Shown here piece by piece: positions 40,733-63,543 of a stretch of 64,000 nt of DNA (its first letter is position 1; each line of letters begins with the position of its first letter). Source of the DNA: an uncultured Candidatus Binatia bacterium (GTDB lineage: Bacteria > Desulfobacterota > Binatia > UBA9968 > JAJDTQ01); the NCBI GenBank assembly GCA_965215605.1, contig OZ244070.1:2208001-2272000 (forward strand), read 5' to 3'. The notes below the pieces were generated by a model. It did not search any database and had not been told where the DNA came from. It worked only from the letters and a program-made list of their open reading frames with translations. A program made the translations under genes and the position numbers.

Positions 40733-40935
40733 GGGTTCCTCCCTGGCGCCCTCGCGCGCGTGTCGGCGATGTTCAGGCGGGGATTATAGGTCCGGACATC
40801 GAACCGGGTCAATCGGCCGGGTCAAGCCCGGGACATGTTTGACTGGTTTCCGCGCTTGGGCTAATCGTTTGGAAATTTACGCAAGCCCCTGAACGCGCGG
40901 TTGCGCGTGCCGGCGGGCTGTCCTGGAGGAACCAA

Positions 40936-41784: not shown

Positions 41785-41802
41785 CACGCGGGGTCGTGCA
41801 CC

Positions 41803-42846: not shown

Positions 42847-42974
42847 CGCGGCGGATCTGCACTCTACGCTGCCCCGCGGCATTTTCTATCGTCGTCCGGC
42901 ATGTTATCTCTTGTATCATGCGTTCACGCGCACCGTACACGGCTTGCCGCTCACCAAGGGAAGCGAGGCGCTCG

Positions 42975-45257: not shown

Positions 45258-45447
45258 GGAACTCCTCCTGATGGTTCTCCCCACAGGTCCATCGAACCGA
45301 AAGCCACGATACACGAAACGGGCGGTGCGGGCGAGGGTCGTCACCCGAGTCGCGCCGCAAAGCGCATGGCCGTACCACAGTGTCAAATGCTATGAATGGG
45401 CACACTGAATGGAATGCGACTCCATCCGGACTTCTCAAGGGTGTCTG

Positions 45448-49038
<3,591 letters not shown>

Positions 49039-49283
49039 AAGTGAACGGTTTCTGTTGCGTTTTCAAATAGTTGCGTCTGGGCGACTCCTAATCTTCCGGG
49101 CTCTGACTACTAATCAGCGGGTCGCTGACTTCCGATTCGCCGCCTCTTGATTTTCAATCTTCCGCTCTTTGATTCGCACTCGTCATGGCTTATTCTTCCG
49201 GTCATACGACCCGTACAACTGGTATCAGCTACGGAACTCTGCCCAAGGTGATACATGAAACGTGGAGGCGTCGAGGCCGATGA

Positions 49284-49595
49284 GTGAACTTTCTGTTCTT
49301 CGGGGTTGTCGAGAAGACCCTCGTCGTATCCGCGCTGGAGATGAAGAAGGGCAGCGCTGAGGCGAAGGAACTTGCGGCACAACTTCAGGGCGGTGCGAAT
49401 TTCGCGGAAAAGCTCGTTCGTCGTGACCCCGGTCCTTCCAAGGTGTATTTCGTGCCCGTTGCCGTGTATGGCGGCAAACTAAACCGCGCCGAACGGGAGA
49501 GGTTGAAGCAACGTGAATGCAGGGTGGCGTTCCGCGGAGTTCATCACGAGATTCGTCTTGCCCGTTGCGGGAGTCCATTGAACACGCTTCTGTGA
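49284..49595 (+). pseudogene. Hypothetical protein fragment, PD-(D/E)XK-like, probably 5'-truncated
   Basis: FLFFG...ALEMKKG...QLQGGA pattern; in-frame upstream context not evident. Confidence 0.35.
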
Positions 49596-49644
49596 AGTGC
49601 ACGACGTTGTCGAGACGTATGGTACCCCTCATGCCTGCATCGGG

Positions 49645-49860
49645 CACTTTGGCGTAGCGTGTGTAAACCGCCATCCCGGGTCCGATGGCCGCTTGGGCGA
49701 GGTCCACCGGAGCGATGTTGCCGGCCTGGAGGTGGGCCAAGGCGGCGGGGAGTTCGGCCTTGAGCGCGGCGACGAACTCGCGCCGGGTGGCCAAGGGCGC
49801 GTCGTCCGGGCGCCGGCGACAGACCAGGACGATGCTGGAGGCGAGGGCGTTGGTGCCCAT
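49645..49860. repeat. 3' repeat block, near-identical inverted copy of about 56421-56636
   Basis: [14 protein letters not shown]...YAKV in both; terminal 41 bp GCCATCGGACCCGGGATGGCGGTTTACACACGCTACGCCAA identical. Confidence 0.88.
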
Positions 49861-50536
49861 GCCGATCATGCGGTTGGTGAGTTCGGTGCGCATGGGCCAT
49901 GTGCCCGTAACGGCGAAACCCGCACGAATCACGGCGTCAAGAAACGTCTCCCATCCAGTGCTGGCAGTCCCCGCTTCGCCCTTGGTCTCCGACTGCTTGA
50001 AGGCATAGTAGATCGTGCTTGGGAAACTGGGATGTGTATCCTGAGCCAATCGCGTCACGGCGCGCGTCATTCCCTCCATGAAAAAGGTCTCTGCCTTCAC
50101 TTTACTCCCGTGGCGGTATGGAGTGGCCACCAATTCCTCGGCCTTCGGCACAGCCACCGTGGCGAAGAGGCCTGGGAACGTTGATCGCAACGAACGCCGT
50201 AGCCATACGTAGAAAAAATCCGAGAGGTCAGCGTAACCGATGTTGTCGTAGTAGGGTGGATCCGTGGAAACGATTCGGGCAATAGACTGTTCTTGTACCG
50301 CAGCATCCACCAAGGTGGCCGTGCCGACGGAGTTAGGTACAAACGTCAATAAGGGGTCCATGACGCAAGCGGTCGCGGCGTCAACACTTCCCGTTGCCTT
50401 CGCCAAGAAGTTGGGTTCAGCATAATCCCAGACCATAGGGAGAGCTTGTCGCCCGAAGCAGTGTTGAGCTTTTTGTCCGACACCGTTCCACCGGACTAAG
50501 TTGTTGCCCGTCATTGCCAGCCGATCCACCGCGAAA

Positions 50537-50650
50537 GCCAGATACACTCCCACTGCCTCGGAATACGCCCGCGCCCCCGAGCCGCCGTCCCGCAGGGGGC
50601 GGTCGTCGTCAGCCATGGATTGGGCCGCCTCCGCGTAATCGTTTCTGACC
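50537..50650. repeat. 114-bp middle repeat block, inverted copy of 55631-55744
   Basis: GGTCAGAAACGATTACGCGG...GGAGTGTATCTGGC identical. Confidence 0.9.
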
Positions 50651-50992
50651 TGCTCGATGGCACCGCCCACCAAGTCGGAGAAGGTCGTCAAGGCAACCAG
50701 TTGGCGAGCCGTGAAGAGATCGCGCCACATGGTCATGCCATATTCTTGTACGCGGAATCCGAGCGCGCGTTCCGGTAAATTCGTTCCGGGGGTCCACTGC
50801 GGTTCCGCCCCATTCGCGACGGCTTCATGTTCAGGTGTTGGCGCCAAGTAAACCCGACCCCGGTCGCCTTCCGCTACAATCGCCATCAGCCTCCCGCCCA
50901 TGCGCCCGGATTTGGCCTCTGACCGCAGGTACTCGAACGGCAAGGGTGCGTCAGACATGAGGCACAGGAACGGCTTCCCGCTTCCCCCCGAT

Positions 50993-52110
50993 TTCGTCCC
51001 CGTCTTCACCTTCTCCTCATCCTTCGGCCTCCCCACCCTTACCTCGAACCGATACCGCCGTCCCTCAATCACCGGCTCGACATACGCCTCCTTCCCCTTC
51101 TTCGTCGACAACATGAACGTCGACGCCAACGGCACCTCCACCTCCGCATACGCAGGATTCGGACTCCTCACCGTCCGCGCCCACAGCCACGCGATCACCG
51201 TCAACTCCCGCCCCTCGTACCGCTTCAGGTCCGGCCGCTCCCGAACCATCTCCCCGGTCACCTCCACCTTCGGGTACAAATGCCCGATCCGTTTCTCCGC
51301 CTCGTCCCGCATCCACTGCCCGTAGTACCGCACGTCTTCCGCCAGCCCCTGCGCTCCCTTCCACTCCCGCTCCACCAGAGTTCTTTTCCCTGTCCCTCCT
51401 CCACTCCGAACCCCCGGGTTCACAGGCCCCCGCCCCGCAAACCGCGGCGGTATCTCGATCATCGCCTTGTTGATCAACACCGCCACCGGATTCAGATCGC
51501 TCGCGTGCGCCTCCAACCCCAATCGCTGCGCCTCCAATGGCAACGCTCCCCCGCCCGCAAATGGATCGTGAAACCCAGGCAGCTTCTCCCGGTCGTACAA
51601 CTCCTTCGCCCTTGGTTCATCCACGTTCCGCGCACACGCCCGCCGCCAACTCCGCCGTATCTCAGTCCGCGCCCGCTCCAGCACTACCTCGTTCGTCGTG
51701 TTCTCCCACTTCACCAACTCCTCGATCAGCCCGAACAACCGCTCACGCTCCTGCTCCGCCGCCACCCCCTCCAGCGTCGGCTCCGGTCCCATACCCAACT
51801 CCGTGCCCGCCACCGCCCGCTGCCCCTCCCGCTCCACCAGCCGCTCCTTCAATCGCCCCTCCGCCGCCTGCCTCCGGTCCGCGTCCGACAGCAACTCCTC
51901 CACGTACTCCGATGGATCGTCCACCATCTGCGCAAATATTACCGACCGCGCCGCCGCCAACGGTCGCCGCGCCCACCACAAATGCAGCGTGCTCGGATGC
52001 CCGTGCCGAATCGACTTCTCCCGCGCTGACGCCACGTTGATCGCCTCCAACGGCAACGCCACCTCGATCAACTTCTTCGTCTCTTCCATCCCTCCTCCAT
52101 TACCATGAAC
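50993..52110. repeat. 1118-bp inverted repeat (copy of 54171-55288)
   Basis: Boundaries read directly; identical translations in the mirrored sense and antisense ORFs. Confidence 0.93.
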
Positions 52111-52157
52111 TCGGAACAGCCCGATACATCAGCAAACGCACACAATGTCGGCGGCAC

Positions 52158-53153
52158 TTGCCGTGTGGCGGCATCGAAGAACTCCTGAAGCCGCTCGCCG
52201 GTGGCCCCGTTTGTCAAAGGAGACATCTCTTGACCACTCCTCACCTACGACAGTTCCAACTGAAGGAATACGGGTCGTCTTCCTACAGAAGCGCCACCGA
52301 TACCGCTCCCCTGTTCGAGGTCGTTGCCGAAGAGGTCTTTCGCCGCTACGGTCAGCGCTGGAAACCAACCACCGCCACCGTCAATCGTTCGTACCTGCGC
52401 AATCAAATCTTGCCATGGTTCCGGGGCCGGTCCATCGCCTCCATCACGCGCCGTGACGTGCAAGGCTGGCTGGCTTCCCGGTCCGCCACGCCGGCCGCGG
52501 CGAACCGGTCGCTTCCCATCCTTTCGGTGATCATGGGCCAAGCGGAAACGTACGGCTATCGCCCGGTCGAGACCAACCCCTGCGCGGGCGTCCGGCGCTA
52601 TCGACAAAGGGGCCGGGAGCGATTTCTCACCGTGGAGGAACTCCGCCGGCTTGGAGAGACCCTCGCCCAACGGGAATCTTTCGCGACCCTTCCCGCGGCC
52701 ATCGTCCGGTTGCTGTTGCTTACCGGTTGTCGCCAGAGCGAAATCCGGGCGCTCCGTTGGACCGAATACCGCGAAGGACACCTGTTCCTGGGCGACAGCA
52801 AGACCGGGCCGCGGACAGTGTGGTTGTCGGCCGCGGCTCGCGCGGTCCTCGACGACCTGCACCGTACGAGTGCTTGGATATTCCCGGCCGCGAGCGGCAA
52901 TGGTCCGCTGTCCACGGAAACACTGTACGGCTGGTGGCGTCCCGTGCGCGCGGCCGCCGGGCTGCACGACGTCCGGCTGCACGACCTGCGTCACAATTAC
53001 GCCAGCTTCGCCCTGCGCCAAGGTGAAACCGTGTTGACCATCGGGCGCCTTCTTGGGCATCGCGACCCTGCCACCACCTTGAAGTACATCCACTTCGCCG
53101 ACACGCTGGCGCAGGATGCGGTCGCAAAGGTGGGCGGGGTTCTGGCGGGTTGA
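52158..53153 (+). CDS. Tyrosine recombinase/integrase 1
   Basis: LLLLTGCRQSE, DSKTG, HDLRHNYAS, LLGH, TLKY; true start uncertain and no arm-binding domain seen. Confidence 0.9.
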   Translation: MPCGGIEELLKPLAGGPVCQRRHLLTTPHLRQFQLKEYGSSSYRSATDTAPLFEVVAEEVFRRYGQRWKPTTATVNRSYLRNQILPWFRGRSIASITRRDVQGWLASRSATPAAANRSLPILSVIMGQAETYGYRPVETNPCAGVRRYRQRGRERFLTVEELRRLGETLAQRESFATLPAAIVRLLLLTGCRQSEIRALRWTEYREGHLFLGDSKTGPRTVWLSAAARAVLDDLHRTSAWIFPAASGNGPLSTETLYGWWRPVRAAAGLHDVRLHDLRHNYASFALRQGETVLTIGRLLGHRDPATTLKYIHFADTLAQDAVAKVGGVLAG

Positions 53154-53159
53154 CAACAG

Positions 53160-54164
53160 ATGAGTCATCCAGGCGTTGTCGTTTCTGCGTCGTCGAGTGT
53201 CGTTCCCCGTCTTGTCGATTTTGTCTCAGGTCCATGGGCTACGGCATGTTACGATCGCTGCAAGCCATCGACCCGGCAACGGATGGTTTCCGCCCTGCGC
53301 AGGCAGTTGCTCCCGGCCTTCGGCCAGCAGCCCCTCGACGAGATCCTTCCGAACGCAGTGCAGCAATGGTTCGACGAGCACAGCGCCACCGCTCCCGGCG
53401 GCGCCAACCGCACGCTGGACGTACTGCGGCAGATCATGAATCACGCCATTGCATGCGGTCATCTGGAGACCAATCCGACCCGCGGCGTGACCCGCAATCC
53501 ACGCCCCATGTTGAACCGTTTTCTATCCCGGAAGGAAGTTCAGCGACTCCATGCTGTTCTCGATGAGCGCGCGGGCGCTTCCGCTCATCAACGACAGCAG
53601 GCAGACCTGATCCGATTGCTTCTGCTCACGGGTTGCCGGATCGGCGAACTCGTGCGCCTGCGCTGGGAGGACCTGGACGGGGATCGGCTCCGCCTGCCGG
53701 ACAGCAAGACGGGACCGCGAATCGTCTTCCTGAACGGGCAGGCCCACGCCATCCTTGCACGGCAGCCTCACAAGGGTCCGTTCATCTTTCCGTCTCGCAC
53801 ATCGGCATCGCGGCCCCATCCCGTCGACCTGCCCCTCTGGCGTTCCGCCCGCCGCCAGGCGGGGATCACCGATGTTCGGCTTCACGATCTCCGCCACACC
53901 TTCGCAAGCCACGCCGTGCTGCAAGGCGTGCCATTGCCGGTCGTCTCGCGCCTCCTCGGCCACACGCAGACGCGGATGACGCTGCGCTACGCGCACCTGA
54001 GCGACAGGGACGTTGCCGCTGCCGCCGAACGCATCGGACGGGGACTCGAGAGAATCGTGAGCGGTCGTAGGACGACCCGATCCGATCCCGGACAAACCGG
54101 CAACACGGAGGGTGCGGCACAGCCGCCGCGGGGAACGGATCGAAACGGATTAAGTATCGGGTAA
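53160..54164 (+). CDS. Tyrosine recombinase/integrase 2 (paralog of 1)
   Basis: LLLLTGCRIGE, DSKTG, HDLRHTFAS, LLGH, TLRY. Confidence 0.92.
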   Translation: MSHPGVVVSASSSVVPRLVDFVSGPWATACYDRCKPSTRQRMVSALRRQLLPAFGQQPLDEILPNAVQQWFDEHSATAPGGANRTLDVLRQIMNHAIACGHLETNPTRGVTRNPRPMLNRFLSRKEVQRLHAVLDERAGASAHQRQQADLIRLLLLTGCRIGELVRLRWEDLDGDRLRLPDSKTGPRIVFLNGQAHAILARQPHKGPFIFPSRTSASRPHPVDLPLWRSARRQAGITDVRLHDLRHTFASHAVLQGVPLPVVSRLLGHTQTRMTLRYAHLSDRDVAAAAERIGRGLERIVSGRRTTRSDPGQTGNTEGAAQPPRGTDRNGLSIG

Positions 54165-54170
54165 TTGTCG

Positions 54171-55288
54171 GTTCATGGTAATGGAGGAGGGATGGAAGAG
54201 ACGAAGAAGTTGATCGAGGTGGCGTTGCCGTTGGAGGCGATCAACGTGGCGTCAGCGCGGGAGAAGTCGATTCGGCACGGGCATCCGAGCACGCTGCATT
54301 TGTGGTGGGCGCGGCGACCGTTGGCGGCGGCGCGGTCGGTAATATTTGCGCAGATGGTGGACGATCCATCGGAGTACGTGGAGGAGTTGCTGTCGGACGC
54401 GGACCGGAGGCAGGCGGCGGAGGGGCGATTGAAGGAGCGGCTGGTGGAGCGGGAGGGGCAGCGGGCGGTGGCGGGCACGGAGTTGGGTATGGGACCGGAG
54501 CCGACGCTGGAGGGGGTGGCGGCGGAGCAGGAGCGTGAGCGGTTGTTCGGGCTGATCGAGGAGTTGGTGAAGTGGGAGAACACGACGAACGAGGTAGTGC
54601 TGGAGCGGGCGCGGACTGAGATACGGCGGAGTTGGCGGCGGGCGTGTGCGCGGAACGTGGATGAACCAAGGGCGAAGGAGTTGTACGACCGGGAGAAGCT
54701 GCCTGGGTTTCACGATCCATTTGCGGGCGGGGGAGCGTTGCCATTGGAGGCGCAGCGATTGGGGTTGGAGGCGCACGCGAGCGATCTGAATCCGGTGGCG
54801 GTGTTGATCAACAAGGCGATGATCGAGATACCGCCGCGGTTTGCGGGGCGGGGGCCTGTGAACCCGGGGGTTCGGAGTGGAGGAGGGACAGGGAAAAGAA
54901 CTCTGGTGGAGCGGGAGTGGAAGGGAGCGCAGGGGCTGGCGGAAGACGTGCGGTACTACGGGCAGTGGATGCGGGACGAGGCGGAGAAACGGATCGGGCA
55001 TTTGTACCCGAAGGTGGAGGTGACCGGGGAGATGGTTCGGGAGCGGCCGGACCTGAAGCGGTACGAGGGGCGGGAGTTGACGGTGATCGCGTGGCTGTGG
55101 GCGCGGACGGTGAGGAGTCCGAATCCTGCGTATGCGGAGGTGGAGGTGCCGTTGGCGTCGACGTTCATGTTGTCGACGAAGAAGGGGAAGGAGGCGTATG
55201 TCGAGCCGGTGATTGAGGGACGGCGGTATCGGTTCGAGGTAAGGGTGGGGAGGCCGAAGGATGAGGAGAAGGTGAAGACGGGGACGAA
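54171..55288. repeat. 1118-bp inverted repeat (copy of 50993-52110)
   Basis: From GTTCATGGTAATGGAGGAGGGATG to GGTGAAGACGGGGACGAA. Confidence 0.93.
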
Positions 55289-57191
55289 GATGGCGCGCGG
55301 GGCCAACTTCAAATGTTTGATGTCGGGAACGGCGCTCACTGCTGGTTATATTCGATCAGAGGCCCAGGCCGGACGTATGGGTTCCCGGTTGATGGCAATC
55401 GTAGCTGAGGGAAATCGCGGGCGAGTCTATCTCGCACCCGTGGCCAATCACGAGGCGATTCCGCGGACGGCAAAGCCAGCGTGGAAACCCGATCTTAAGG
55501 TGCCAACGCCATGCCACGATGTTGACCGTCTTCCGATGTACGGGATGCCGACGTGGGGTGATGCGTTCACTCCCCGCCAGCTCGTTGCGTTGACCACCTT
55601 CTCGGACTTGGTGGGCGAAGCCATCGAGCGGGTCAGAAACGATTACGCGGAGGCGGCCCAATCCATGGCTGACGACGACCGCCCCCTGCGGGACGGCGGC
55701 TCGGGGGCGCGGGCGTATTCCGAGGCAGTGGGAGTGTATCTGGCATTTGCTATCGACAAATTGGCCGATCGGAACTCAACCGTGTGCGCTTGGGCGACTC
55801 TTCGGGAACACGCCCGCAATACATTCGGGCGCCAAGCCCTCCCCATGGTGTGGGACTTCGCTGAAAGCAATCCGTTGTCCAAAGCGAGCGGCAATTTCGA
55901 CGGGGGCATTACATCAATTGTCGCTGCTTTGAGTTCGGTTGTGCCATTGGCATGGGGTAGCGCTACACAGAGCGACGCCCAGTCAGTCAATGACCGGGGC
56001 ATACGGGTCTTTTCTACCGATCCGCCATACTACGACAATGTCGGATATGCTGATCTCTCGGACTTCTTCTACGTTTGGCTGCGTAGAGCAGTTAGATCGA
56101 TCTTCCCTGACATCTTTTCTACCGTGACCGTTCCGAAGTGCGAAGAACTGGTAGCAACCCCATACCGGCATGGCAATAGGGCCAAGGCAGAGGCATTTTT
56201 TCTGTCTGGGATGACAGAAGCCATGAGGGGCTTGGCAGTGCGCTCACACCCTGCCTTCCCAGTGACAATATATTATGCATTCAAACAGTCTGAGACTAAG
56301 GGTGACACAGGTATTTCAAGCACTGGTTGGGAGACGTTCCTGGACGCTGTAATTCGCGCTGGTTTCTCCGTTACGGGCACGTGGCCGATGCACACCGAGC
56401 TAAGTAGGCGAATGGTGGGGAAGGGCACCAACGCCCTGGCATCCAGCATCGTCCTGGTCTGCCGCCCGCGCCCGGACGACGCCCTCCTCGCCACCCGGCG
56501 CGAGTTCGTCGCCGCGCTCAAGGCCGAGCTTCCGCTCGCCCTCGCCCACCTCCAGGCTGGCAACATCGCTCCGGTAGACCTCGCCCAAGCAGCCATCGGA
56601 CCCGGGATGGCGGTTTACACACGCTACGCCAAGGTGTTGGACGCCCAGGGCAGGCCGGTTCCCGTCCGGGATGCGCTGGCGCTCATCAACCAGACGCTCG
56701 ACGAAACCCTTGCCGAGCAGGAAGGCGAGTTTGACGCGGACACCCGCTGGGCGTTGGCATGGTTCGAGCAGCACGGGTTTGGCGAGGGTGAGTACGGCGT
56801 GGCGGAAACGCTCTCCAAGGCCAAGAATACGAGCATCGCGGGCGTCGTCGATGGAGGCATTCTGGACTCCCGCGCCGGGAAGGTTCGGCTTCTGCGGCCC
56901 GCGGAGTTGGCCGATGACTGGGATCCCACCGCGGATTCGCGGCTTACGGTTTGGGAGGCTGTTCACCATCTCGTTCGTGTTCTCGATGCAGGCGGCGAAA
57001 CGGAGGCCGCGCGTCTTCTGAGGCGGTTGGGAGGGGTAGGGGAAACCGCGCGTGAGTTGGCCTACCGGCTTTACAGCATCGCGGAACGAAAGAGCCGGCC
57101 GGCGGAAGCCTTGTCGTACAATGGGCTGGTCCAAAGTTGGCCGGAAATCGTCCGCTTGGCTGGCTCCCCGGAGCAGGCCGAGTTGCTCTGA
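54192..57191 (+). CDS. DUF1156-domain adenine DNA methyltransferase, full length (999 aa)
   Basis: [43 protein letters not shown] (motif I), STDPPYYDN (motif IV); GGAGG RBS. Confidence 0.93.
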   Translation: MEETKKLIEVALPLEAINVASAREKSIRHGHPSTLHLWWARRPLAAARSVIFAQMVDDPSEYVEELLSDADRRQAAEGRLKERLVEREGQRAVAGTELGMGPEPTLEGVAAEQERERLFGLIEELVKWENTTNEVVLERARTEIRRSWRRACARNVDEPRAKELYDREKLPGFHDPFAGGGALPLEAQRLGLEAHASDLNPVAVLINKAMIEIPPRFAGRGPVNPGVRSGGGTGKRTLVEREWKGAQGLAEDVRYYGQWMRDEAEKRIGHLYPKVEVTGEMVRERPDLKRYEGRELTVIAWLWARTVRSPNPAYAEVEVPLASTFMLSTKKGKEAYVEPVIEGRRYRFEVRVGRPKDEEKVKTGTKMARGANFKCLMSGTALTAGYIRSEAQAGRMGSRLMAIVAEGNRGRVYLAPVANHEAIPRTAKPAWKPDLKVPTPCHDVDRLPMYGMPTWGDAFTPRQLVALTTFSDLVGEAIERVRNDYAEAAQSMADDDRPLRDGGSGARAYSEAVGVYLAFAIDKLADRNSTVCAWATLREHARNTFGRQALPMVWDFAESNPLSKASGNFDGGITSIVAALSSVVPLAWGSATQSDAQSVNDRGIRVFSTDPPYYDNVGYADLSDFFYVWLRRAVRSIFPDIFSTVTVPKCEELVATPYRHGNRAKAEAFFLSGMTEAMRGLAVRSHPAFPVTIYYAFKQSETKGDTGISSTGWETFLDAVIRAGFSVTGTWPMHTELSRRMVGKGTNALASSIVLVCRPRPDDALLATRREFVAALKAELPLALAHLQAGNIAPVDLAQAAIGPGMAVYTRYAKVLDAQGRPVPVRDALALINQTLDETLAEQEGEFDADTRWALAWFEQHGFGEGEYGVAETLSKAKNTSIAGVVDGGILDSRAGKVRLLRPAELADDWDPTADSRLTVWEAVHHLVRVLDAGGETEAARLLRRLGGVGETARELAYRLYSIAERKSRPAEALSYNGLVQSWPEIVRLAGSPEQAELL

Positions 57192-57205
57192 CAACAGAGG
57201 CGATC

Positions 57206-57970
57206 ATGAGCAAGGCCGAGGAATTGTTGAAGCGTATCCGCTTGGGTGAGGATTCGACCCTGGAACTCAAGCGCGTGTCCTTGTCCGGCTCCAGAGTGAC
57301 GGACCCGGGTCGCGACGAGTTCGCGGACGAGTTGGGCGCCATGGCCAATGGATGGGGAGGCACGGTGGTGCTCGGGGTCACGGACGGACGGCGTGAGATT
57401 GTGGGGATCCCGTTGGCACAACTGGATGCGGTCGAGACCTGGGTTAGGGAAGTCTGTAACGACTCCATCGTGCCTCCGCTCGACGCGTTGATTCAGAAGC
57501 TGGAGTTGCCGACGCTCGGTGGCGATTTCGTGCCGGTGATCCGTATTGAGGTGGAGCGCAGTCTGTTCGTTCACAAGAGTCCCGGCGGTTATTTCCGCCG
57601 GATTGGCAGCTCGAAACGCGAGCTGTCGCCAGAGAGGCTGGCGCGTCTCTTCCAGGAGCGCAGCCAGACCCGCATGATTCGCTTCGACGAATCACTGATG
57701 CCCGGAACCAGGCCGGAACATCTGGACTACGCCCTGACACGGCGGTTTCTGCGCGAAGACGTTCCGGAAGAGGGTGTGACCGAAGATGCCGCGCACAAGC
57801 TGCGTCTCGTCGGTGATGACGAGGCGGGAGTGGCGAGGCTTACGCTTACCGGCGTACTCCTGTGCACGCGCGAGCCACAGCAATGGCTTCCGCACGCCTA
57901 TGTACAGGCAGTCAGCTACGCCGGTGAACGGACGGATGCGGATTACCAGACCGATGGGGCATGGGAATAG
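57206..57970 (+). pseudogene. AlbA_2/Schlafen-like DNA-binding protein, apparently C-terminally truncated
   Basis: GEDSTLELK, AMANGWGGTVVLGVTD, YFRRIGSS; ends before the EAxxNAxxHRDY ATPase-like segment usual in this family. Confidence 0.65.
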
Positions 57971-58040
57971 GGGTCCGGGCGCAGAAGGGGCGACTTTGTG
58001 GGACGCTACGCGCACCGTTGCGGACTCTGATAGCAGCAGC

Positions 58041-58667
58041 ATGGACGCAGTACCCTGTCCTGTTCTCACCATCGGCCATTCCACTCACCTTGTGGAAGCA
58101 TTCGCCGGCCTCCTGACGCGTTACCAAGTGGCGAAGGTGATGGATGTTCGCTCGACGCCGTACAGCCGCTTCAATCCACAGTTCAATCGTGAGTCGCTGG
58201 CGCGCAGTCTCGCGGAACGCGAGATCGGCTACGTGTTCCTCGGAGTGGAGTTGGGTGGGCGCTCGGACGATCCGTCCTGCTACGAGAACGGGCGCATCCG
58301 CTACGACTGGGTCGCGGCGACCGGGTCGTTCCAGCGAGGACTGGCCCGGGTCTTGCAGGACGCCGTGGGAAATCGCGTGGCGCTGATGTGCGCCGAGAAA
58401 GAGCCGCTGAACTGTCACCGTACCGTGCTGGTGACCCAGGCGCTCGCGGCTCACGGGATCGTAGTCGGCCATATCCTCGCGGACGGCGAACTTGAGACCC
58501 ACGCCAAAGCCATGGAGAGGCTGCTGGCCATTCACGGCGGTGCTCAACAAGCAGACTTGTTCGTCTCGCCTAGTGCTCGAATCGAATGGGCCGTCGCCAG
58601 GCAGGCAGAACGTATCGGGTACAGAAGGCGAGAGAACAGGGAGACTCGCGGAAGCGGCAGGTTGTGA
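58041..58667 (+). CDS. DUF488 family protein
   Basis: TIGHSTH, DVRSTPYSRFNPQFN, ELGGR, LMCAEKEPLNCHR. Confidence 0.9.
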   Translation: MDAVPCPVLTIGHSTHLVEAFAGLLTRYQVAKVMDVRSTPYSRFNPQFNRESLARSLAEREIGYVFLGVELGGRSDDPSCYENGRIRYDWVAATGSFQRGLARVLQDAVGNRVALMCAEKEPLNCHRTVLVTQALAAHGIVVGHILADGELETHAKAMERLLAIHGGAQQADLFVSPSARIEWAVARQAERIGYRRRENRETRGSGRL

Positions 58668-58696
58668 GCCACTACGGCGGTAGCCAAAGATAAAAT

Positions 58697-58715
58697 GTTA
58701 ACCCCAGGGGTTAAC
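58697..58715. promoter_or_regulatory. Perfect palindrome, probable antitoxin operator
   Basis: GTTAACCCC-A-GGGGTTAAC in an AT-rich spacer 18 bp before the toxin start. Confidence 0.65.
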
Positions 58716-58733
58716 TGATTTGACAACTCGTGC

Positions 58734-59072
58734 ATGGAAATATATATCAAGCCTACAAGGCTCAGGAAGCAACTGACGAACGCCAAGGCGATGAGGGTAG
58801 CTCATGGCCCCAAGCGAGCAAAGCTCCTTCAGCAGAGGCTTTCGGAAATCGAGGCATCACCGAATCTCGACGTCCTCAGTCGGCTTCCTGGACCGCGGTT
58901 TCATCCACTTAGGGGAAACCGCCGGGGCCAACTGTCGGTCGACCTCGACCACCCCTATCGGTTGCTCTTTGTTCCGGGCCACGATCCTGTCCCCGAGCTT
59001 CCTGCAGGCGGAACTGATCTCCGGTTGGTTACCAAGATCATCGTCATCGAAATCGCCAATACCCATGAGTAA
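58734..59072 (+). CDS. HigB-like (RelE/ParE superfamily, killer suppression) toxin
   Basis: RFHPLRGNRRGQLSVDLDHPYRLLF; overlaps the downstream antitoxin. Confidence 0.85.
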   Translation: MEIYIKPTRLRKQLTNAKAMRVAHGPKRAKLLQQRLSEIEASPNLDVLSRLPGPRFHPLRGNRRGQLSVDLDHPYRLLFVPGHDPVPELPAGGTDLRLVTKIIVIEIANTHE

Positions 59073-60159
59073 GCAAGAATTCAATCCTGATTACGCCGTC
59101 CCGCCGGGGGAGACCCTGCTCGAAACCATCCATGTGTTGGATCTGACGCAGAAGGAACTGGCTCTGCGCATGGGCCGTCCGGTCAAGACCATTAACGAGA
59201 TCATCAAGGGCGTGGCGGCCATTACGCCCGAGACATCTCTGCAATTGGAGAAAGTAACGGGGGTGCCGGCTTCTTTCTGGAATAATGCAGAGGCCAACTA
59301 CCGCGAGCGTTTGGCGAGGTCGCAGGAACGGCTCCGCATCGAGACGCAGATCGAGTGGCTGAAGCGTTTCTCGTACAGCAAGATGGTCGAATTGCAACTT
59401 GTTCCGGCATCCGTCGACAAGACGGAACGGGTCGAGAACCTGCTCCGGTTCTTTGGCGTGGTCTCGGAAACACAATGGCGCAGTACATATGCCGGTCTGA
59501 CAGGAGCCGCGCGAGAGGCCACCAGACTGAAGAGCGAGATGGGTGACCTGAGCGCTTGGCTGAGGGCTGGCGAATTGGACGCGCGGGAAAGCGTTTGCGA
59601 GAGCTACGATCTGTTGCGGTTCAAGGATGCGCTTTCGGAAATCCGGATCTTGACTCAACGGAGCCCGCCGGATGTATGGGCTGAAGTCTGTCGCCTCTGC
59701 GCGGAAGCCGGTGTTGTGGTTGTACTGGTGCCCGAGCTGCCCAAGACCCACGTCTACGGGTTCACCCGTTGGTTGACCAAGGACAAGGCGTTGATGCAGC
59801 TCAGTCTTCGCTACAAGACCGACGATGTCCTGTGGTTTACTTTCTTTCACGAAGCGGCTCACCTCCTCCTTCACGGAAAGAAGGAGGTTTTCCTGGAGTC
59901 TCGTGGGTCGAGTGACTCAAAGGAAAAGGCGGCCGACCGTTGGGCTGCGAACTTCCTCATCTCCGAGAGGGCCTGGGACGGCTTTGTCGAAACGCTGTCA
60001 CAGCGGGTCTCGGAGAAGGTGGTTCGCGACTTCGCCAATGCCCAACGAATAGCTCCGGGCATCGTCGTAGGTCGGCTCCAGAAGGAAGGGCGACTCAGGC
60101 ATTCGTTCCTGAACAAGCTGAAGCACAGACTTGAAATCGATTGGCCGTATGGCGGCTGA
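59065..60159 (+). CDS. HigA-type XRE HTH antitoxin fused to an ImmA/IrrE metallopeptidase
   Basis: AVPPGETL, TQKELALRMG..INEIIKG..ITPET; WFTFFHEAAH, EKAADRWAANFLI. Confidence 0.88.
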   Translation: MSKQEFNPDYAVPPGETLLETIHVLDLTQKELALRMGRPVKTINEIIKGVAAITPETSLQLEKVTGVPASFWNNAEANYRERLARSQERLRIETQIEWLKRFSYSKMVELQLVPASVDKTERVENLLRFFGVVSETQWRSTYAGLTGAAREATRLKSEMGDLSAWLRAGELDARESVCESYDLLRFKDALSEIRILTQRSPPDVWAEVCRLCAEAGVVVVLVPELPKTHVYGFTRWLTKDKALMQLSLRYKTDDVLWFTFFHEAAHLLLHGKKEVFLESRGSSDSKEKAADRWAANFLISERAWDGFVETLSQRVSEKVVRDFANAQRIAPGIVVGRLQKEGRLRHSFLNKLKHRLEIDWPYGG

Positions 60160-60255: not shown

Positions 60256-63200
60256 ATGGCAATCACGAACCACGAACGGGTCGGCAAGGCGATGGATCTC
60301 CTTCGGGACGGCTTGGCGCCTTTTGTCGAGCGAGAGTTGGTGGGCAAGGACGTTACTGATGGATACGCCACGCCTGCCAAGCCCGTGTCCGACCAGGACG
60401 CCGCGGGACTGCTCAAGCTGATCTGGGACAACTGGCAGTTGGTGTTCCGGAACATACTGGGGAACGCGGAACGGAGTCTCGTGGCGGAATTGCGGGACTG
60501 GCGCAACAAGTGGGCGCATCAGGAAAGCATTTCCGGCGACGATGCCTACCGGGCTCTCGATTCGGCGAGCCGCCTGCTGGCCGCGGTGTCGGCGCCGCAG
60601 TGGGAGGAACTCGACAAGATCAAGAACGAACTCCTGCGGGTCCGTTTTGACGAGCAGGCACGGGGTGAGCGTCGCAAGCAGATGGGCGCCGCCATCGAGA
60701 GTGGCGCGACGGCCGGGCTCAAGCCTTGGCGCGAGGTGATTACGCCACACGGGGATGTGGCCAGTGGCGGCTATCAGCAGGCCGAGTTCGCCGCCGACCT
60801 TTGGCAGGTGCACCTGGGTGAAGGATCTTCCGAGTACCGGGACCCGGTGGAGTTTTTTCGGCGCACGTATCTCACGGAGAGTCTCAAGCGTTTGCTGGTC
60901 AGGGCGGTGCAACGTCTGGCCGGACGGGGCGGCGACCCCGTGGTGGATCTCCAGACCAACTTCGGCGGCGGGAAAACCCACTCCATGCTGGCGCTGTACC
61001 ACCTGTTTTCGGGCGTTTCCCCCGGGGACTTGGCGGACGTCGAACAGATCATGCAGGAGGCGGGTCCGGACCGGCTGCCGTCCGTCACCCGGGTCGTTCT
61101 CGTGGGCAACAAGATCTCTCCCGGCAATCCGTCGATCAAGCACGACGGCACGGCCGTGCGGACCTTGTGGGGTGAGTTGGCTTGGCAACTCGGCGGCAAG
61201 CGGGCGTTCCAGAGGGTGCAGGCTGACGATGAGCGCGCCACGAGTCCCGGAGACGTTCTGCGGGAGCTTCTCAACGAATACGGTCCTTGCCTGATCCTCA
61301 TCGACGAGTGGGTCGCCTACGCGCGCCAACTCCACGATCAAAGCGATCTGCCGGCCGGGAGCTTCGAGACCCAGTTCACCTTTGCCCAGGCGCTCACCGA
61401 GGCAGCCAAGGCGGCGGAAAACTGTTTGTTGGTCATCAGCTTGCCCGCGTCGGATTCCGGCGGTTCGCCCCACGTGGATGACGCAGAGGTGGGCGGTCAG
61501 CGCGGACGCGAGGCCCTTGGGCGGTTGCGCAACGTGGTGGGCCGTGTCGAATCATCGTGGCGGCCCGCCAGTGCCGAGGAGGGCTTTGAAATCGTGCGGC
61601 GACGGTTGTTCGAACCTCTGGCCGACTCCGAGCGGTTCAGGGACCGGGACGTAGTGGCGCGAGCCTTTGCCGATCTGTACCGGACCCAGCACCAGGAGTT
61701 TCCGGTGGAGTGCCGCGACGCGGACTATGAGAAGCGCATCCGCGCGGCCTATCCGATTCATCCTGAAATTTTCGACCGGCTCTATGGCGACTGGTCCACT
61801 CTAGTGAACTTTCAACGCACCCGCGGCGTCCTGCGTCTGATGGCCGCGGTCATCCACAGCCTGTGGGCGACGGGCGACCGAAGCCCGATTATCCTGCCGG
61901 CCAGCATCTCCATCGACGACAGGCAGGTGCAGTTCGAACTGACCCGTTATCTCTCGGACAACTGGACGCCGATTCTCGAAAAGGACGTCGATGGTCCCAG
62001 TTCGCTACCGGTGCAGATCGACGGGCAGATGTCGAATCTGGGTAAATTCTCGGCTACGCGACGCGTGGCGCGCACCATCTACCTCGGCTCGGCGCCCACG
62101 GCGGAGACCGCGAACCGGGGTCTCGATGATCGCCGCGTCAAGCTGGGCTGCGTCTTGCCGGGCGAGTCGCCGGCGGTGTTCGGCGATGCGCTGAGACGCT
62201 TGGCCGGGACGGCCACATACCTCTATCAGGAGGGCACGCGCTACTGGTACTCGACTCAACCGACCGTCACGAAGCTGGCCGAAGACCGTGCCCAGCAACT
62301 GACGCGCGAGCCGGAAAAGGTGGGTTACGAGCTGCGGAACCGCCTCGCCGCCGACCTGAAGCAACGCGGCGATTTCAGCCGCATCCATCCCTTGCCGCAG
62401 TCCGGTCAGGATGTCCCGGATGACCGGGATGCACGTCTGGTGGTGCTGGGTAACGATCAGCCCTACAGCCGAGGGGCTGACAATCCCGCCCAACTCGCCG
62501 CGGCATCCATCCTTGAATCGCGCGGGAGCGCTCCCAGACTGTACCGCAATTCGCTGGTTTTCCTGGCCGCTGACAGGACGCGCCTGCAGGATCTCGACGA
62601 CGCGCTGAGGCGCTATCTCGCCTGGGAATCGATTATGGGCGAGCGGAACGAACTGAACCTGTCGCCGCACCAGGTCAAGCAGGCCGAGACGCAGAAAGAA
62701 GCGGCCTACAGCACGGTCACGGCGCGCCTGCCAGAGACCTACCAGTGGCTTCTGGTGCCCGAGCAACCGAAGCCGCAGAATACCATGGGCTGGCAAGTGA
62801 TCCGGTTGACCAGTCAGGACGCCTTGGCCGTGCGGGCGAGCAAGAGACTCAAAAACGACGAGCAACTGGTCACCGCCTTGGGCGCCAACCGACTTCGCAT
62901 GGAGATGGACAGGATTCCGCTATGGCGTGGCGACCACGTCGAGGTGCGGCAGGTCGTGGACGATTTCGCCCGCTACCCGTACCTGCCGCGTCTCAAGGAC
63001 GCCGATGTCGTGTTGAAAGCCATCACCGATGGAGTCGGGTTCCTCAGTTGGCAGCAGGACTCGTTTGCCTTCGCCGAGGACTACGACAAGGACGGAATGC
63101 GCTACCGTGGCCTCCGGGCCAACCAAATGATGACACTCCCGGACGGGGATTCGTCAGGGTTATTGGTGAAAGCGGAAGCCGCGCGCCGTCAATTCGACGC

Positions 63201-63543
63201 GGAGGCAAAGCCGCCAACGCCACCACCGGTACCCGACACCGACGGCGATGATCCTCCCAAGCCGGATGATCCAGTTGTCAAACCGCCCGACCCACCGGCG
63301 CCCGCTCGGCCAAAGCGCTTCCACGGCACCGTGTTCCTCAATGCCATGCGTGCCGGAGTCGATGCCAGCCAGATCGCCGACGAGGTCATCTCACATCTGG
63401 CGGGTTTGGTCGGAGCCAAGGTCACGGTAACGCTGGAGATCGAAGCAGAGGTTCCCGACGGCGCTCCGGACCACGTGGTTCGGACGGTCACCGAGAACAG
63501 CCGAACGCTGAAGTTCACGAGCCAAGGGTTTGAGGAGGAGTAG
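60256..63543 (+). CDS. DUF499 AAA+ ATPase with N-terminal Swt1-like HEPN domain
   Basis: RNKWAH (Rx4H); KPWREVITPH, AEFAADL, LQTNFGGGKTHSM (Walker A), ILIDEW (Walker B), YPIHPE, FQRTRGVLRLMA; Pro-rich linker. Confidence 0.92.
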   Translation: MAITNHERVGKAMDLLRDGLAPFVERELVGKDVTDGYATPAKPVSDQDAAGLLKLIWDNWQLVFRNILGNAERSLVAELRDWRNKWAHQESISGDDAYRALDSASRLLAAVSAPQWEELDKIKNELLRVRFDEQARGERRKQMGAAIESGATAGLKPWREVITPHGDVASGGYQQAEFAADLWQVHLGEGSSEYRDPVEFFRRTYLTESLKRLLVRAVQRLAGRGGDPVVDLQTNFGGGKTHSMLALYHLFSGVSPGDLADVEQIMQEAGPDRLPSVTRVVLVGNKISPGNPSIKHDGTAVRTLWGELAWQLGGKRAFQRVQADDERATSPGDVLRELLNEYGPCLILIDEWVAYARQLHDQSDLPAGSFETQFTFAQALTEAAKAAENCLLVISLPASDSGGSPHVDDAEVGGQRGREALGRLRNVVGRVESSWRPASAEEGFEIVRRRLFEPLADSERFRDRDVVARAFADLYRTQHQEFPVECRDADYEKRIRAAYPIHPEIFDRLYGDWSTLVNFQRTRGVLRLMAAVIHSLWATGDRSPIILPASISIDDRQVQFELTRYLSDNWTPILEKDVDGPSSLPVQIDGQMSNLGKFSATRRVARTIYLGSAPTAETANRGLDDRRVKLGCVLPGESPAVFGDALRRLAGTATYLYQEGTRYWYSTQPTVTKLAEDRAQQLTREPEKVGYELRNRLAADLKQRGDFSRIHPLPQSGQDVPDDRDARLVVLGNDQPYSRGADNPAQLAAASILESRGSAPRLYRNSLVFLAADRTRLQDLDDALRRYLAWESIMGERNELNLSPHQVKQAETQKEAAYSTVTARLPETYQWLLVPEQPKPQNTMGWQVIRLTSQDALAVRASKRLKNDEQLVTALGANRLRMEMDRIPLWRGDHVEVRQVVDDFARYPYLPRLKDADVVLKAITDGVGFLSWQQDSFAFAEDYDKDGMRYRGLRANQMMTLPDGDSSGLLVKAEAARRQFDAEAKPPTPPPVPDTDGDDPPKPDDPVVKPPDPPAPARPKRFHGTVFLNAMRAGVDASQIADEVISHLAGLVGAKVTVTLEIEAEVPDGAPDHVVRTVTENSRTLKFTSQGFEEE

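What the first reader, a model, noticed from the sequence alone, without database searches (positions are those of the whole stretch)
49636..57191. Candidate invertible specificity switch (shufflon) in the DUF1156 methyltransferase of a DUF499/SNF2 restriction-like system
Seen: a full DUF1156 gene (54192-57191, +) and a back-to-back inverted allele (52089 to ~49636, -). The second allele has the same RBS, start and first 1.1 kb, differs in the middle, and loses homology at YAKV, so it lacks the last ~180 aa. Two catalytically intact tyrosine recombinases fill the space between them. Known: recombinase-driven inversion of specificity genes occurs in type I RM hsdS loci and in BREX pglX. Inference: crossover in the 3' block (49645-49860 x 56421-56636) flips ~7 kb and fuses the silent allele to the only C-terminus, changing the methylated motif and hence self/non-self recognition. 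I am not aware of a description of this for DUF1156/DUF499 systems, but cannot check the literature here.
Basis: partly seen in the sequence, partly recalled or inferred. Interest (0 to 1): 0.9.

Follow-up and report, generated by a model that had tools for sequence, protein, structure and literature searches.

The report
Invertible methylase switch in Hma defence
A bacterial anti-phage system carries a second, tail-less, back-to-front copy of its DNA-methylase gene beside two recombinase genes, an arrangement that most likely lets the cell flip DNA to change which sequence it marks as self.

Summary
A complete hmaB (DUF1156 methylase, 54192-57191,+) and a head-to-head copy (52089-49645,-) flank two intact tyrosine recombinases inside an Hma system (SNF2 helicase, methylase, DUF499 ATPase). 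Three shared blocks (1118 nt perfect; 212 nt; 629 nt) bracket two divergent cassettes, so four coding states are possible. Homology ends exactly after V815, before the C-terminal domain.

Support:
- A genome from another family (G097) has the same parts: truncated inverted hmaB, the same mosaic, the same end-point and an orthologous recombinase pair. There the full-length gene lies on the strand opposite to hmaA and hmaC.
- The shared blocks evolve in concert in both genomes, while the cassettes are saturated at synonymous sites.
- The silent copy is open for 815 codons, and dN is far below dS.
- The cassettes lie in the insert between Rossmann strands 2 and 3. Swapping part of that region in the related MANTIS methylase switches specificity.

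Against:
- No inversion was seen. The reads were uninformative and no recombinant protein is on record.
- Only 2 of 56 Hma-bearing genomes have the arrangement.
- The recombinases' other relatives are not linked to Hma.

Verdict: probable programmed inversion switch (about 0.6), a new variant of a known kind.

The parts
45409..49038 (+). hmaA: SNF2 helicase with a C-terminal NOV_C nuclease-like domain
   Evidence: Pfam SNF2-rel_dom, Helicase_C, NOV_C; PADLOC HmaA 1666 bits
49039..49644 (.). Spacer. On the - strand it is the unrelated read-through tail of the silent allele's ORF (to 49225). No family match.
   Evidence: Translation; Pfam found nothing for the ORFs here; protein search with the tail found only the window's own protein
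49645..52089 (-). Silent allele hmaB' (aa 1-815): complete N-terminal domain, methylase core and target-recognition insert, but no C-terminal domain
   Evidence: 815 codons without a stop
49645..50273 (.). Block 3, left arm (pairs with 56008-56636): 629 nt, 78%; last 75 codons dS 0.29; exact runs of 38 and 41 nt
50274..50530 (-). Cassette V2 of allele A (aa 521-605; 39% aa identity to B). By synonymous divergence the unexchanged part runs on to aa 740.
50531..50742 (.). Block 2, left arm (pairs with 55539-55750): 212 nt, 89%, exact run of 114 nt
50743..50992 (-). Cassette V1 of allele A (aa 367-449; 51% aa identity to B)
50993..52110 (.). Block 1, left arm (pairs with 54171-55288): 1118 nt, 100%, includes the RBS and 21 nt of leader
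52158..53153 (+). int1, tyrosine recombinase (the true start is probably further downstream)
   Evidence: Pfam; 68% identical to the G097 orthologue; sister to it in the tree, 99/99
53160..54164 (+). int2, tyrosine recombinase, 40% identical to int1
   Evidence: Pfam; 66% identical to the G097 orthologue; sister to it, 89/88
54192..57191 (+). hmaB, complete methylase (999 aa): motif I F177AGGG, motif IV D610PPY. V1 = 55289-55538, V2 = 55751-56007. The only C-terminal domain is at 56637-57191 (aa 816-999).
57137..60159 (+). Embedded genes between hmaB and hmaC: Schlafen AlbA_2 protein (57137-57970), DUF488 (57786-58667; PADLOC PDC-M45B), HTH + M78 peptidase (58804-60159; PD-Lambda-2_B-like)
60256..63543 (+). 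hmaC: Swt1-like HEPN fused to a DUF499 ATPase
   Evidence: Pfam; PADLOC HmaC 1151 bits

Best explanation
The locus is an Hma (helicase-methylase-ATPase; 'BREX-related type 1') defence system. Between hmaA and hmaB it holds a diversifying module: a second copy of the methylase gene that lacks the C-terminal domain (aa 1-815), and a tandem pair of tyrosine recombinases. The silent copy lies head-to-head with the complete gene. The two copies share three blocks that bracket two divergent cassettes, V1 (aa 367-449) and V2 (aa 521-605, effectively to about 740). Both cassettes lie inside the large insert between Rossmann strands 2 and 3, which is the target-recognition region of this methylase class.

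Inversion between the arms of block 3 would flip about 7 kb. Inversion at block 2 would flip about 5 kb. Either would re-join a different V1/V2 combination to the single C-terminal domain, giving four full-length methylases (BB, AA, AB, BA). Inversion at block 1 would only flip the recombinase cassette. In the related MANTIS system the methylase's recognition region programs both methylation and restriction, so each flip should re-aim both modification and defence.

Shown: the anatomy; its recurrence with orthologous recombinases in a second genome; concerted evolution of the blocks; intactness of the silent allele; the position of the cassettes in the fold.

Inferred: that inversion happens; that int1/int2 catalyse it, rather than RecA acting on the long repeats; and that the recognised motif changes.
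For: 1. Anatomy.

2. Second example. G097 belongs to another family of the same class. It has hmaA, hmaC, a full hmaB and an inverted copy with the same mosaic (844 nt at 98%, 256 nt at 99%, 327 nt at 96%, separated by divergent stretches). Its homology ends at the same nucleotide, after the V815-equivalent codon.

3. The G097 recombinase pair keeps the same gene order. It is 68% and 66% identical to int1 and int2, against about 40% between the paralogues. The two Hma-linked pairs are sisters in both halves of the tree (99/99 and 89/88), excluding 20 rows from loci without Hma genes.

4. Concerted evolution. A versus B has dS 0.004 in block 1, 0.36 in block 2 and 0.29 in aa 741-815. In V1, V2 and aa 606-740 synonymous sites are saturated (pS 0.71-0.90). 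G097 shows the same pattern independently.

5. The silent allele has 815 codons with no stop. dN/dS is about 0.07-0.18 in the conserved parts.

6. In G097 the full-length hmaB lies on the strand opposite to hmaA and hmaC, and the truncated copy is co-directional with them. In all 5 viral-contig loci that hold the three genes, in G023 and in the window, the three genes share a strand. An inversion between the two copies explains the G097 arrangement most simply.

7. Among 236 retrieved homologues, 3 (P0017, P0039, P0231) have an intact N-terminus and lose homology within 5 codons of the same point, each running into an unrelated tail.

8. P0120 is in the same 90% cluster as the window's HmaB. 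It matches the window's HmaB closely outside V1 (91% overall) but carries a third V1 type, 54-56% identical to V1A and V1B.

9. Among homologues, V1 and V2 types assort independently.

10. The AlphaFold model (pLDDT 93, pTM 0.93) puts V1 and V2 in the insert between beta2 (194-198) and beta3 (589-593). The truncation point falls at the junction to the C-terminal helical domain.

11. Literature. DUF1156 methylases carry the recognition insert after core strand 2 (10.1101/2025.10.09.681413, passages). In MANTIS MtsC, exchanging aa 445-527, which lie between motif I (241-245) and motif IV (621-624), switched both methylation and restriction specificity without toxicity (10.64898/2026.09.23.753747, passages).
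Against: No molecule in the other orientation was seen. The 4 public runs are kept as short contigs that end at the repeats and cannot tell orientation.

No full-length protein with the A cassettes exists in the 5.8-billion-protein collection; the best full-coverage hit is 76% identical. No B-body-plus-A-tail protein exists there either.

The arrangement is rare. Of 56 distinct Hma-bearing genomes found in 4 samples, 2 have it. Six viral contigs show no second copy. In the 70 plasmid records, 73 places were counted and no duplicated locus was noticed, but the records with two places were not opened.

The recombinase pair's other relatives (56-67% identical) lie in 17 metagenome loci. None of the 22 loci returned holds an Hma gene. 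None of the 7 searched for repeats has flanking inverted repeats. One pair sits at the edge of a defence island next to housekeeping genes, so the family's usual job may be integration.

The G097 truncated copy has a frameshift in V1, which could be decay or a long-read error.

No short repeated recombination site was found.

The mapping of the MANTIS swap onto HmaB rests on position relative to motifs, not on an alignment.
Confidence: 0.62

Rival explanations
1. Static relic. The truncated copy and the recombinase pair are debris of a mobile island or of an old rearrangement. The repeats are kept alike by occasional gene conversion, but no programmed switching takes place, and the recombinases serve integration and excision of an element.
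For: Tandem pairs of this recombinase family are abundant in the genus (22 of 28 genomes match at E<=1e-40, many as pairs about 1.2 kb apart). In metagenomes they occur without Hma genes or inverted repeats. One sits at an island border. G097 has a second such pair with no repeat. The arrangement is rare (2 of 56 genomes). The G097 copy has a frameshift. No recombinant is on record.
Against: Integration makes direct repeats, not inverted ones. The same module, with orthologous recombinases and the same end-point to the nucleotide, recurs inside the Hma operon of a genome from another family. An 1118-nt perfect repeat next to saturated cassettes needs frequent, recent exchange. The silent allele is intact over 815 codons. 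In G097 the C-terminal domain sits on the copy facing away from hmaA and hmaC.
Confidence: 0.2
2. The switch is real, but it is driven by general homologous recombination (RecA) between the long repeats. The recombinases are bystanders.
For: The repeats are long for a site-specific system: exact runs of 1118 nt and 114 nt. No short conserved core site was found repeated at the block edges. Gene-conversion-like gradients of dS are seen.
Against: Block 3, the only crossover that moves both cassettes together, offers exact runs of only 38 and 41 nt. The recombinase pair is co-inherited with the module in two genomes. Truncated copies in five independent sequences end within 5 codons of one another and then run into unrelated tails. 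This points to a defined site, or at least to a domain border.
Confidence: 0.12
3. Assembly artefact: two strains' hmaB alleles were joined into a false inverted duplication.
For: The genome is a metagenome-type assembly with 5.7% contamination. One run (X4) holds a close variant strain (table 3). A near-identical relative with another V1 exists.
Against: Contigs of 2 to 4 independently assembled runs bridge every unique/repeat junction (table 8). An unrelated single-contig genome (G097) shows the same design. The recombinase genes sit exactly between the repeat arms.
Confidence: 0.03

Closest known systems
Programmed inversions in defence methylase genes: BREX type 1 PglX, class 1 DISARM DrmMI and Cj0031-like type IIG enzymes (Milman et al. 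2023, PMC9881135; passages read)
   Same: A full-length methylase gene plus partial inverted copies. Repeats lie inside the coding sequence. A nearby recombinase is present. The presumed effect is a change in the specificity of a methylation-based defence system.
   Different: The methylase belongs to another class: DUF1156 with a central recognition insert, not a gamma-class enzyme with a C-terminal recognition domain. The system is a different one (Hma). There are two cassettes separated by a conserved block, and the constant part is the C-terminal domain. There are two tandem recombinases. Neither 'Hma' nor 'COG1743' occurs in that paper's main text; its supplements could not be seen.
Type I restriction-modification hsdS shufflons, e.g. 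the pneumococcal hsdS inversions (PMC4948785 and PMC7096588, seen only as listing and abstract starts; PMC7672463, abstract start)
   Same: Two recognition modules are shuffled combinatorially by inversion between repeats. A tyrosine recombinase lies next to them. One locus gives several specificities.
   Different: There is no HsdS subunit here. The cassettes lie inside the catalytic methylase itself. The repeats are much longer (1118 nt).
MANTIS / Gao_RL (BREX-related type 2) methylase MtsC (bioRxiv 10.64898/2026.09.23.753747; abstract and passages read)
   Same: A homologous class of methylase with a central recognition domain between motifs I and IV, working with a DUF499 ATPase and a helicase-nuclease. 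A laboratory swap of part of that domain changes both methylation and restriction specificity.
   Different: MANTIS has four genes (with MtsB and a PLD nuclease). The swap was made in the laboratory. No natural shuffling, recombinase or inverted copy is mentioned: 'shuffl' and 'recombin' occur 0 times.
FimB/FimE of the E. coli fim switch (recalled, not checked in a call)
   Same: Two paralogous tyrosine recombinases are encoded in tandem beside the DNA they invert.
   Different: The fim switch flips a promoter between 9-bp repeats. Here coding cassettes would be exchanged between long repeats. Relatedness was not tested.

Membership tests
Hma defence system (PADLOC; = DUF499-centred BREX-related type 1) | HmaA: SNF2 helicase with a nuclease domain | tested here: met
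   PADLOC HmaA 1666 bits over 13-1208; Pfam SNF2-rel_dom, Helicase_C, NOV_C
Hma defence system (PADLOC; = DUF499-centred BREX-related type 1) | HmaB: DUF1156 N6-adenine methylase | tested here: met
   PADLOC HmaB 1499 bits; Pfam DUF1156; FAGGG and DPPY motifs in the translation
Hma defence system (PADLOC; = DUF499-centred BREX-related type 1) | HmaC: DUF499 ATPase, same strand, same locus | tested here: met
   PADLOC HmaC 1151 bits; Pfam DUF499 + HEPN_Swt1; all three on the + strand
Programmed gene-altering inversion (shufflon-type switch) | Inverted repeats inside a full gene and a partial silent copy of it | tested here: met
   Three repeat pairs; perfect over 1118 nt
Programmed gene-altering inversion (shufflon-type switch) | Site-specific recombinase encoded next to the repeats | tested here: met
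   Two Phage_integrase proteins lie exactly between the arms. Orthologous pair in G097.
Programmed gene-altering inversion (shufflon-type switch) | Both orientations present in one population (reads) or among close strains | tested here: inconclusive
   Only contigs were available, and they break at the repeats. No recombinant proteins on record. Indirect hints: the G097 strand arrangement and the V1 swap in P0120.
Programmed gene-altering inversion (shufflon-type switch) | Variable parts fall in the specificity-determining domain | tested here: met
   V1 and V2 lie in the insert between beta2 and beta3 of the model. This insert is named the recognition domain in two papers. The assignment is by position, not by experiment on this protein.
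Type I RM hsdS shufflon | The shuffled gene is an HsdS specificity subunit, with HsdM and HsdR present | tested here: not met
   No HsdS, HsdM or HsdR family among the Pfam and PADLOC matches of the locus genes
BREX type 1 PglX inversion | The shuffled gene is PglX within a BREX operon | tested here: not met
   PADLOC's best match is HmaB (1499 bits). Type II methylase models score 101 bits or less, and no PglX model is listed. PglZ was not searched for specifically.
MANTIS / BREX-related type 2 | Four genes, including the small MtsB protein and a PLD-nuclease helicase | tested here: not met
   The helicase carries NOV_C, not PLD. The PADLOC PLD_Helicase model scores 96 bits against 1666 for HmaA. 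An MtsB homologue was not searched for.
RIT (recombinase-in-trio) elements | Three tandem tyrosine recombinases | tested here: not met
   Only two recombinase ORFs lie between the repeat arms

The most novel reading that the evidence does not exclude
The truncated hmaB plus the int1-int2 pair is a self-contained, horizontally portable 'specificity-diversifying module'. It can plug into Hma operons in either orientation: head-to-head in the window, tail-to-tail in G097. It uses a defined crossover site at the methylase/C-terminal-domain junction (...AVYTRYxxV), and combinatorial exchange of two recognition cassettes gives a four-state methylase. Its existence would also mean that in Hma, as in MANTIS, the methylase's recognition insert alone programs what the helicase-nuclease restricts. 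Otherwise switching would be lethal.
Probability: 0.3. Interest if true: 0.8.

Novelty: new variant of a known kind. Interest (0 to 1): 0.62.

Why it matters
Hma and BREX-related systems are widespread. One paper reports Hma in 26 phyla (PMC8565338), and another counted 1,485 distinct systems. Even so, how Hma recognises its targets has not been shown.

A natural two-cassette switch would mark which residues set specificity. It would predict that the methylase programs restriction as well as modification. It would also extend phase-variable epigenetic defence to another methylase class.

There is a practical warning too. The published Hma survey kept only loci in which each hma gene occurs once, all hma genes share a strand and none is a pseudogene. 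That filter would discard exactly these loci.

Tried and rejected
**Reads.** One search found 4 runs from one study, all kept as Logan contigs. Laid on 49000-57400, they break at the repeats. The only 'opposite strands' joint (50262/55112, one contig, side 32) joins non-homologous positions and was set aside. No verdict on orientation.

**Recombinant proteins.** A search with allele A aa 366-821 found no close full-length form. A search with the A tail found only the window's own protein.

**Genome-contig scan with int2.** Only hits of 40% identity or less, most of them 24-33%.

**More examples.**
- Plasmids: 70 records with 73 places; no duplicated locus noticed, and records with two places were not opened.
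- Viral contigs: 6 loci, none duplicated.
- Own order: 15 of 123 genomes match. The count includes G801, an unpublished genome from which only this tally is used.
- Order of G097: 16 of 56.
- Phylum sample: 14 of 401.
- None of these gave a new case.

**int2 orthologues (E<=1e-75).** Only G000 among 401 genomes of the phylum sample. Only G097 among the 55 genomes of its family.

**Apparent leads that failed.**
- The split hmaB of G015 is an insertion-sequence (IS) insertion at contig ends.
- P0017 is not encoded in G097.
- The second recombinase pair of G097 has no repeats.
- G023 has a solitary second hmaB on the same strand, not an inverted one.

**Structure.**
- The first AlphaFold run, with 22 close sequences, gave pLDDT 49 and was discarded.
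- A PDB profile search gave 0 hits.
- Foldseek against the PDB gave nothing better than E 0.046, only generic methyltransferases.

**Recombination site.** No further copy of the boundary motif was found in 48.9-57.4 kb. Four-way DNA conservation peaks coincide with conserved protein motifs.

**Promoters.** No sigma-70-like site was found in 48.8-57.9 kb.

**A wrong recollection.** I recalled that 'BIM' elements are recombinase pairs. That was wrong: they are one recombinase plus another protein (PMC3414803).

Full report
**1. What is in the window**

ORF listing, translation, Pfam and PADLOC give this gene order:
- hmaA, 45409-49038 (+): SNF2 helicase with a NOV_C nuclease-like end.
- A 606-nt spacer.
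- A reversed hmaB copy, 52089 to 49645 (-).
- int1, 52158-53153 (+), and int2, 53160-54164 (+).
- The complete hmaB, 54192-57191 (+), 999 aa.
- Three embedded genes: AlbA_2, DUF488 and HTH-M78 peptidase.
- hmaC, 60256-63543 (+): HEPN + DUF499.

PADLOC scores of 1666, 1499 and 1151 bits identify an Hma system. One paper files Hma under 'DUF499-centred BREX-related type 1' (10.1101/2025.10.09.681413, passages). In canonical loci hmaA, hmaB and hmaC follow one another on one strand. This holds in all 5 viral-contig loci that contain the three genes and in G023. The silent copy and the two recombinases are therefore an insertion between hmaA and hmaB.

**2. The repeats**

The repeat finder, a nucleotide alignment and direct comparison show three inverted blocks.
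- Block 1: 54171-55288 x 50993-52110. It is 1118 nt with no mismatch and includes the ribosome-binding site.
- Block 2: 55539-55750 x 50531-50742. It is 212 nt at 89%, with an exact run of 114 nt.
- Block 3: 56008-56636 x 49645-50273. It is 629 nt at 78%, with exact runs of 38 and 41 nt near its outer end.

Between the blocks lie two divergent cassettes:
- V1, aa 367-449, 51% amino-acid identity.
- V2, aa 521-605, 39% amino-acid identity.

Homology stops after the codon of V815 (...[10 protein letters not shown]). The silent copy then reads on into unrelated sequence.

The two recombinases fill the space between the arms of block 1. Each has the R, K, HxxR, H and Y motif residues. They are 40% identical to each other.

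**3. Is the structure real?**

Logan contigs from four public runs (one study, two samples) cover the region in pieces. They bridge each junction between repeat and unique DNA by 44 nt or more in at least two runs (table 8). These runs may include the source sample, so this is weak independent support. The stronger argument is that the design recurs in an unrelated assembly (section 4). The contigs end at the repeats and cannot show orientation. There is therefore no direct evidence for or against flipping.

**4. A second example**

I searched 401 genomes of the class with the conserved 3' block. Forty-two matched, and only G000 and G097 had a second, inverted match nearby. G097 is a single-contig genome from another family. 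Its locus reads:
- hmaC (-), int2-like (-), int1-like (-).
- An HSDR_N gene (+).
- The full hmaB (+).
- An inverted hmaB copy (-).
- hmaA (-).

Its two hmaB copies are tail-to-tail and show the same mosaic: 844 nt at 98%, a gap, 256 nt at 99%, a gap, then 327 nt at 96%. In a four-way alignment the conserved and divergent stretches of the two genomes fall in the same columns. Homology ends at the same nucleotide in both.

The G097 recombinases are 68% and 66% identical to int1 and int2, and they lie in the same order. In a tree of 26 rows the two Hma-linked int1 sequences are sisters (99/99), and so are the two int2 sequences (89/88). All rows from loci without Hma genes fall outside these pairs. 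HmaA, HmaB and HmaC are 80%, 66% and 72% identical between the two genomes.

In G097 the complete hmaB faces away from hmaA and hmaC, and the truncated copy follows hmaA in the operon direction. An inversion between the copies that carried the C-terminal domain across explains this most simply. This is an inference, and it is weakened by a 750-nt gap after hmaA and a frameshift in V1 of the truncated copy.

**5. Signs of ongoing exchange and selection**

Nei-Gojobori estimates between alleles A and B:

| Segment | dS or pS | dN or pN |
|---|---|---|
| Block 1 | dS 0.004 | dN 0 |
| Block 2 | dS 0.36 | dN 0.055 |
| aa 741-815 | dS 0.29 | dN 0.053 |
| aa 606-740 | dS 2.25 | dN 0.165 |
| V1 | pS 0.90 | pN 0.35 |
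| V2 | pS 0.85 | pN 0.44 |

Three tracts are thus kept alike while the rest is saturated, and G097 shows the same independently. This calls for repeated exchange between the copies in each lineage.

The silent allele has no stop in 815 codons, and dN is far below dS. Part of that signal could predate the joining of the two alleles in one genome.

**6. Wider family**

Two searches of the 5.8-billion-protein collection each returned about 8000 relatives. I retrieved 236 of them.
- Three (P0017, P0039, P0231) have a normal N-terminus and lose homology within 5 codons of V815. Their tails are unrelated to each other. With the window and G097, that makes five sequences truncated at one spot.
- The AlphaFold model places this spot at the junction between the methylase core and the C-terminal helical domain. 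A domain border, a recombination site, or both could explain it.
- P0120 is in the same 90% cluster as the window's HmaB. It matches the window's HmaB closely outside V1 but has a third V1 type.
- Across the homologues, V1 and V2 types combine freely. Thirty-three are A/A-like, 50 have an A-like V1 with another V2, and 35 have another V1 with an A-like V2. The set was chosen by likeness to allele A, so the numbers are biased.

**7. Where the cassettes sit**

A first model built from 22 close sequences failed (pLDDT 49). A second, built from 108 diverse sequences, reached pLDDT 93.2 and pTM 0.93. Its features are:
- beta1 at 173-175, followed by the FAGGG motif.
- beta2 at 194-198.
- A large insert up to beta3 (589-593).
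- beta4 at 605-609, followed by D610PPY.
- The rest of the core up to about 815.
- A helical C-terminal domain from 825.

V1 and V2 both lie in the insert. No solved structure resembles the model.

Two papers call this insert the target-recognition domain of DUF1156-type methylases. In MANTIS MtsC, replacing aa 445-527 with the corresponding stretch of a sister enzyme changed the methylated hexamer. It also changed the restriction specificity, without toxicity (10.64898/2026.09.23.753747, passages). Counted from motif I or from motif IV, that stretch corresponds to roughly aa 381-516 of HmaB, which overlaps V1. This is an estimate by position, not an alignment.

**8. How it most likely works**

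Site-specific or homologous crossover between the arms of block 3 would flip 49646-56635 and put V1A-V2A on the C-terminal domain. Crossover in block 2 would flip 50743-55538 and give V1A-V2B. Crossover in block 1 would only turn the recombinase cassette.

Four methylases could thus be made from one locus. Because restriction in this class follows the methylase's recognition domain (shown for MANTIS, inferred for Hma), both self-marking and targeting would change together.

The pair of recombinases may act as a hetero-complex or on different sites. Nothing here tests that.

**9. Against, and rivals**

The arrangement is rare. Pooling searches gives 56 distinct Hma-bearing genomes, and 2 have it. 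Many of these assemblies are fragmented, and a 1-kb inverted repeat would break their contigs, so the rate may be underestimated.

The recombinase family is common in this genus. Its nearest other members (56-67% identical) lie in 17 metagenome loci, 10 of them as tandem pairs. None of the 22 loci returned holds an Hma gene, and none of the 7 searched for repeats has flanking inverted repeats. One pair sits at an island border.

This keeps alive the reading that the pair is an integrase module and the copy a relic (0.2). It also leaves room for the reading that RecA rather than the recombinases does the flipping (0.12). An assembly artefact is unlikely (0.03).

**10. Novelty**

Inversion switches are described for hsdS, PglX, DrmMI and Cj0031-like enzymes (PMC9881135, passages). 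I found no mention of one for Hma or DUF1156 methylases in any of the following:
- The 5 papers that contain 'DUF1156' (listing, with passages of one).
- The 2 papers that contain both 'DUF499' and 'invert'.
- The BREX-related survey: 'phase', 'recombinase' and 'integrase' occur 0 times.
- The Hma embedding preprint: 'recombinase', 'inver' and 'shufflon' occur 0 times.
- The MANTIS preprint.
- A search for intragenic invertons.

Supplementary tables were closed and might list such a locus. I rate this a new variant of a known kind.

Noticed in passing
window 60256-63543: HmaC carries an N-terminal Swt1-like HEPN domain (aa 11-112) fused to the DUF499 ATPase. The G097 HmaC has the same fusion.
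   Followed up: partly
window 57137-60159: Three genes are embedded between hmaB and hmaC. They are a Schlafen AlbA_2 protein whose ORF starts inside the end of hmaB, a DUF488 protein (PADLOC candidate PDC-M45B, 256 bits) and an HTH + M78 peptidase protein (PD-Lambda-2_B-like). This fits the reported habit of Hma to hold embedded defence genes.
   Followed up: partly
proteins P0006, P0048, P0127, P0132, P0156, P0168, P0073; probably also G024:C1:4610706-4614320 and G012:C1:3737180-3740800: Some HmaB homologues of about 1000-1270 aa carry a Y1 (IS200-like, PF01797) transposase domain. In P0006, the only one read, it lies in frame inside the recognition insert, at the variable loop of block 2. 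The reading frame stays open through it.
   Followed up: no
protein P0242, from a 13.9-kb contig that could not be read: A 194-aa ORF consists only of the HmaB C-terminal domain. It starts at M806 ([10 protein letters not shown]...), nine codons before the truncation point, and is nearly identical to the window's. It may come from a rearranged or broken copy in a related strain.
   Followed up: no
genomes of the same genus; L046-L057; L068:8117-10416: Tandem pairs of paralogous tyrosine recombinases, about 1.2 kb start to start, are very common in this genus: up to 20 matches per genome. They also occur in metagenomes. One pair lies between folC/accD-like genes and a type IIG-like methylase. 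What these pairs do is unknown.
   Followed up: partly
G023:C1:1263800-1288100 (L077, L078): A relative has a complete hmaA-hmaB-hmaC locus. It also has a solitary second full-length hmaB 13 kb away on the same strand, with no helicase or ATPase beside it.
   Followed up: partly
G015 contigs C262 and C180 (L075, L076): The closest hmaB orthologue in the genus is cut at about aa 565 by an insertion sequence, which ends both contigs. DUF488 survives there only as fragments upstream of hmaC.
   Followed up: partly
window 40861-42882 (-): A 673-aa ORF upstream of the locus has no Pfam or PADLOC match.
   Followed up: no
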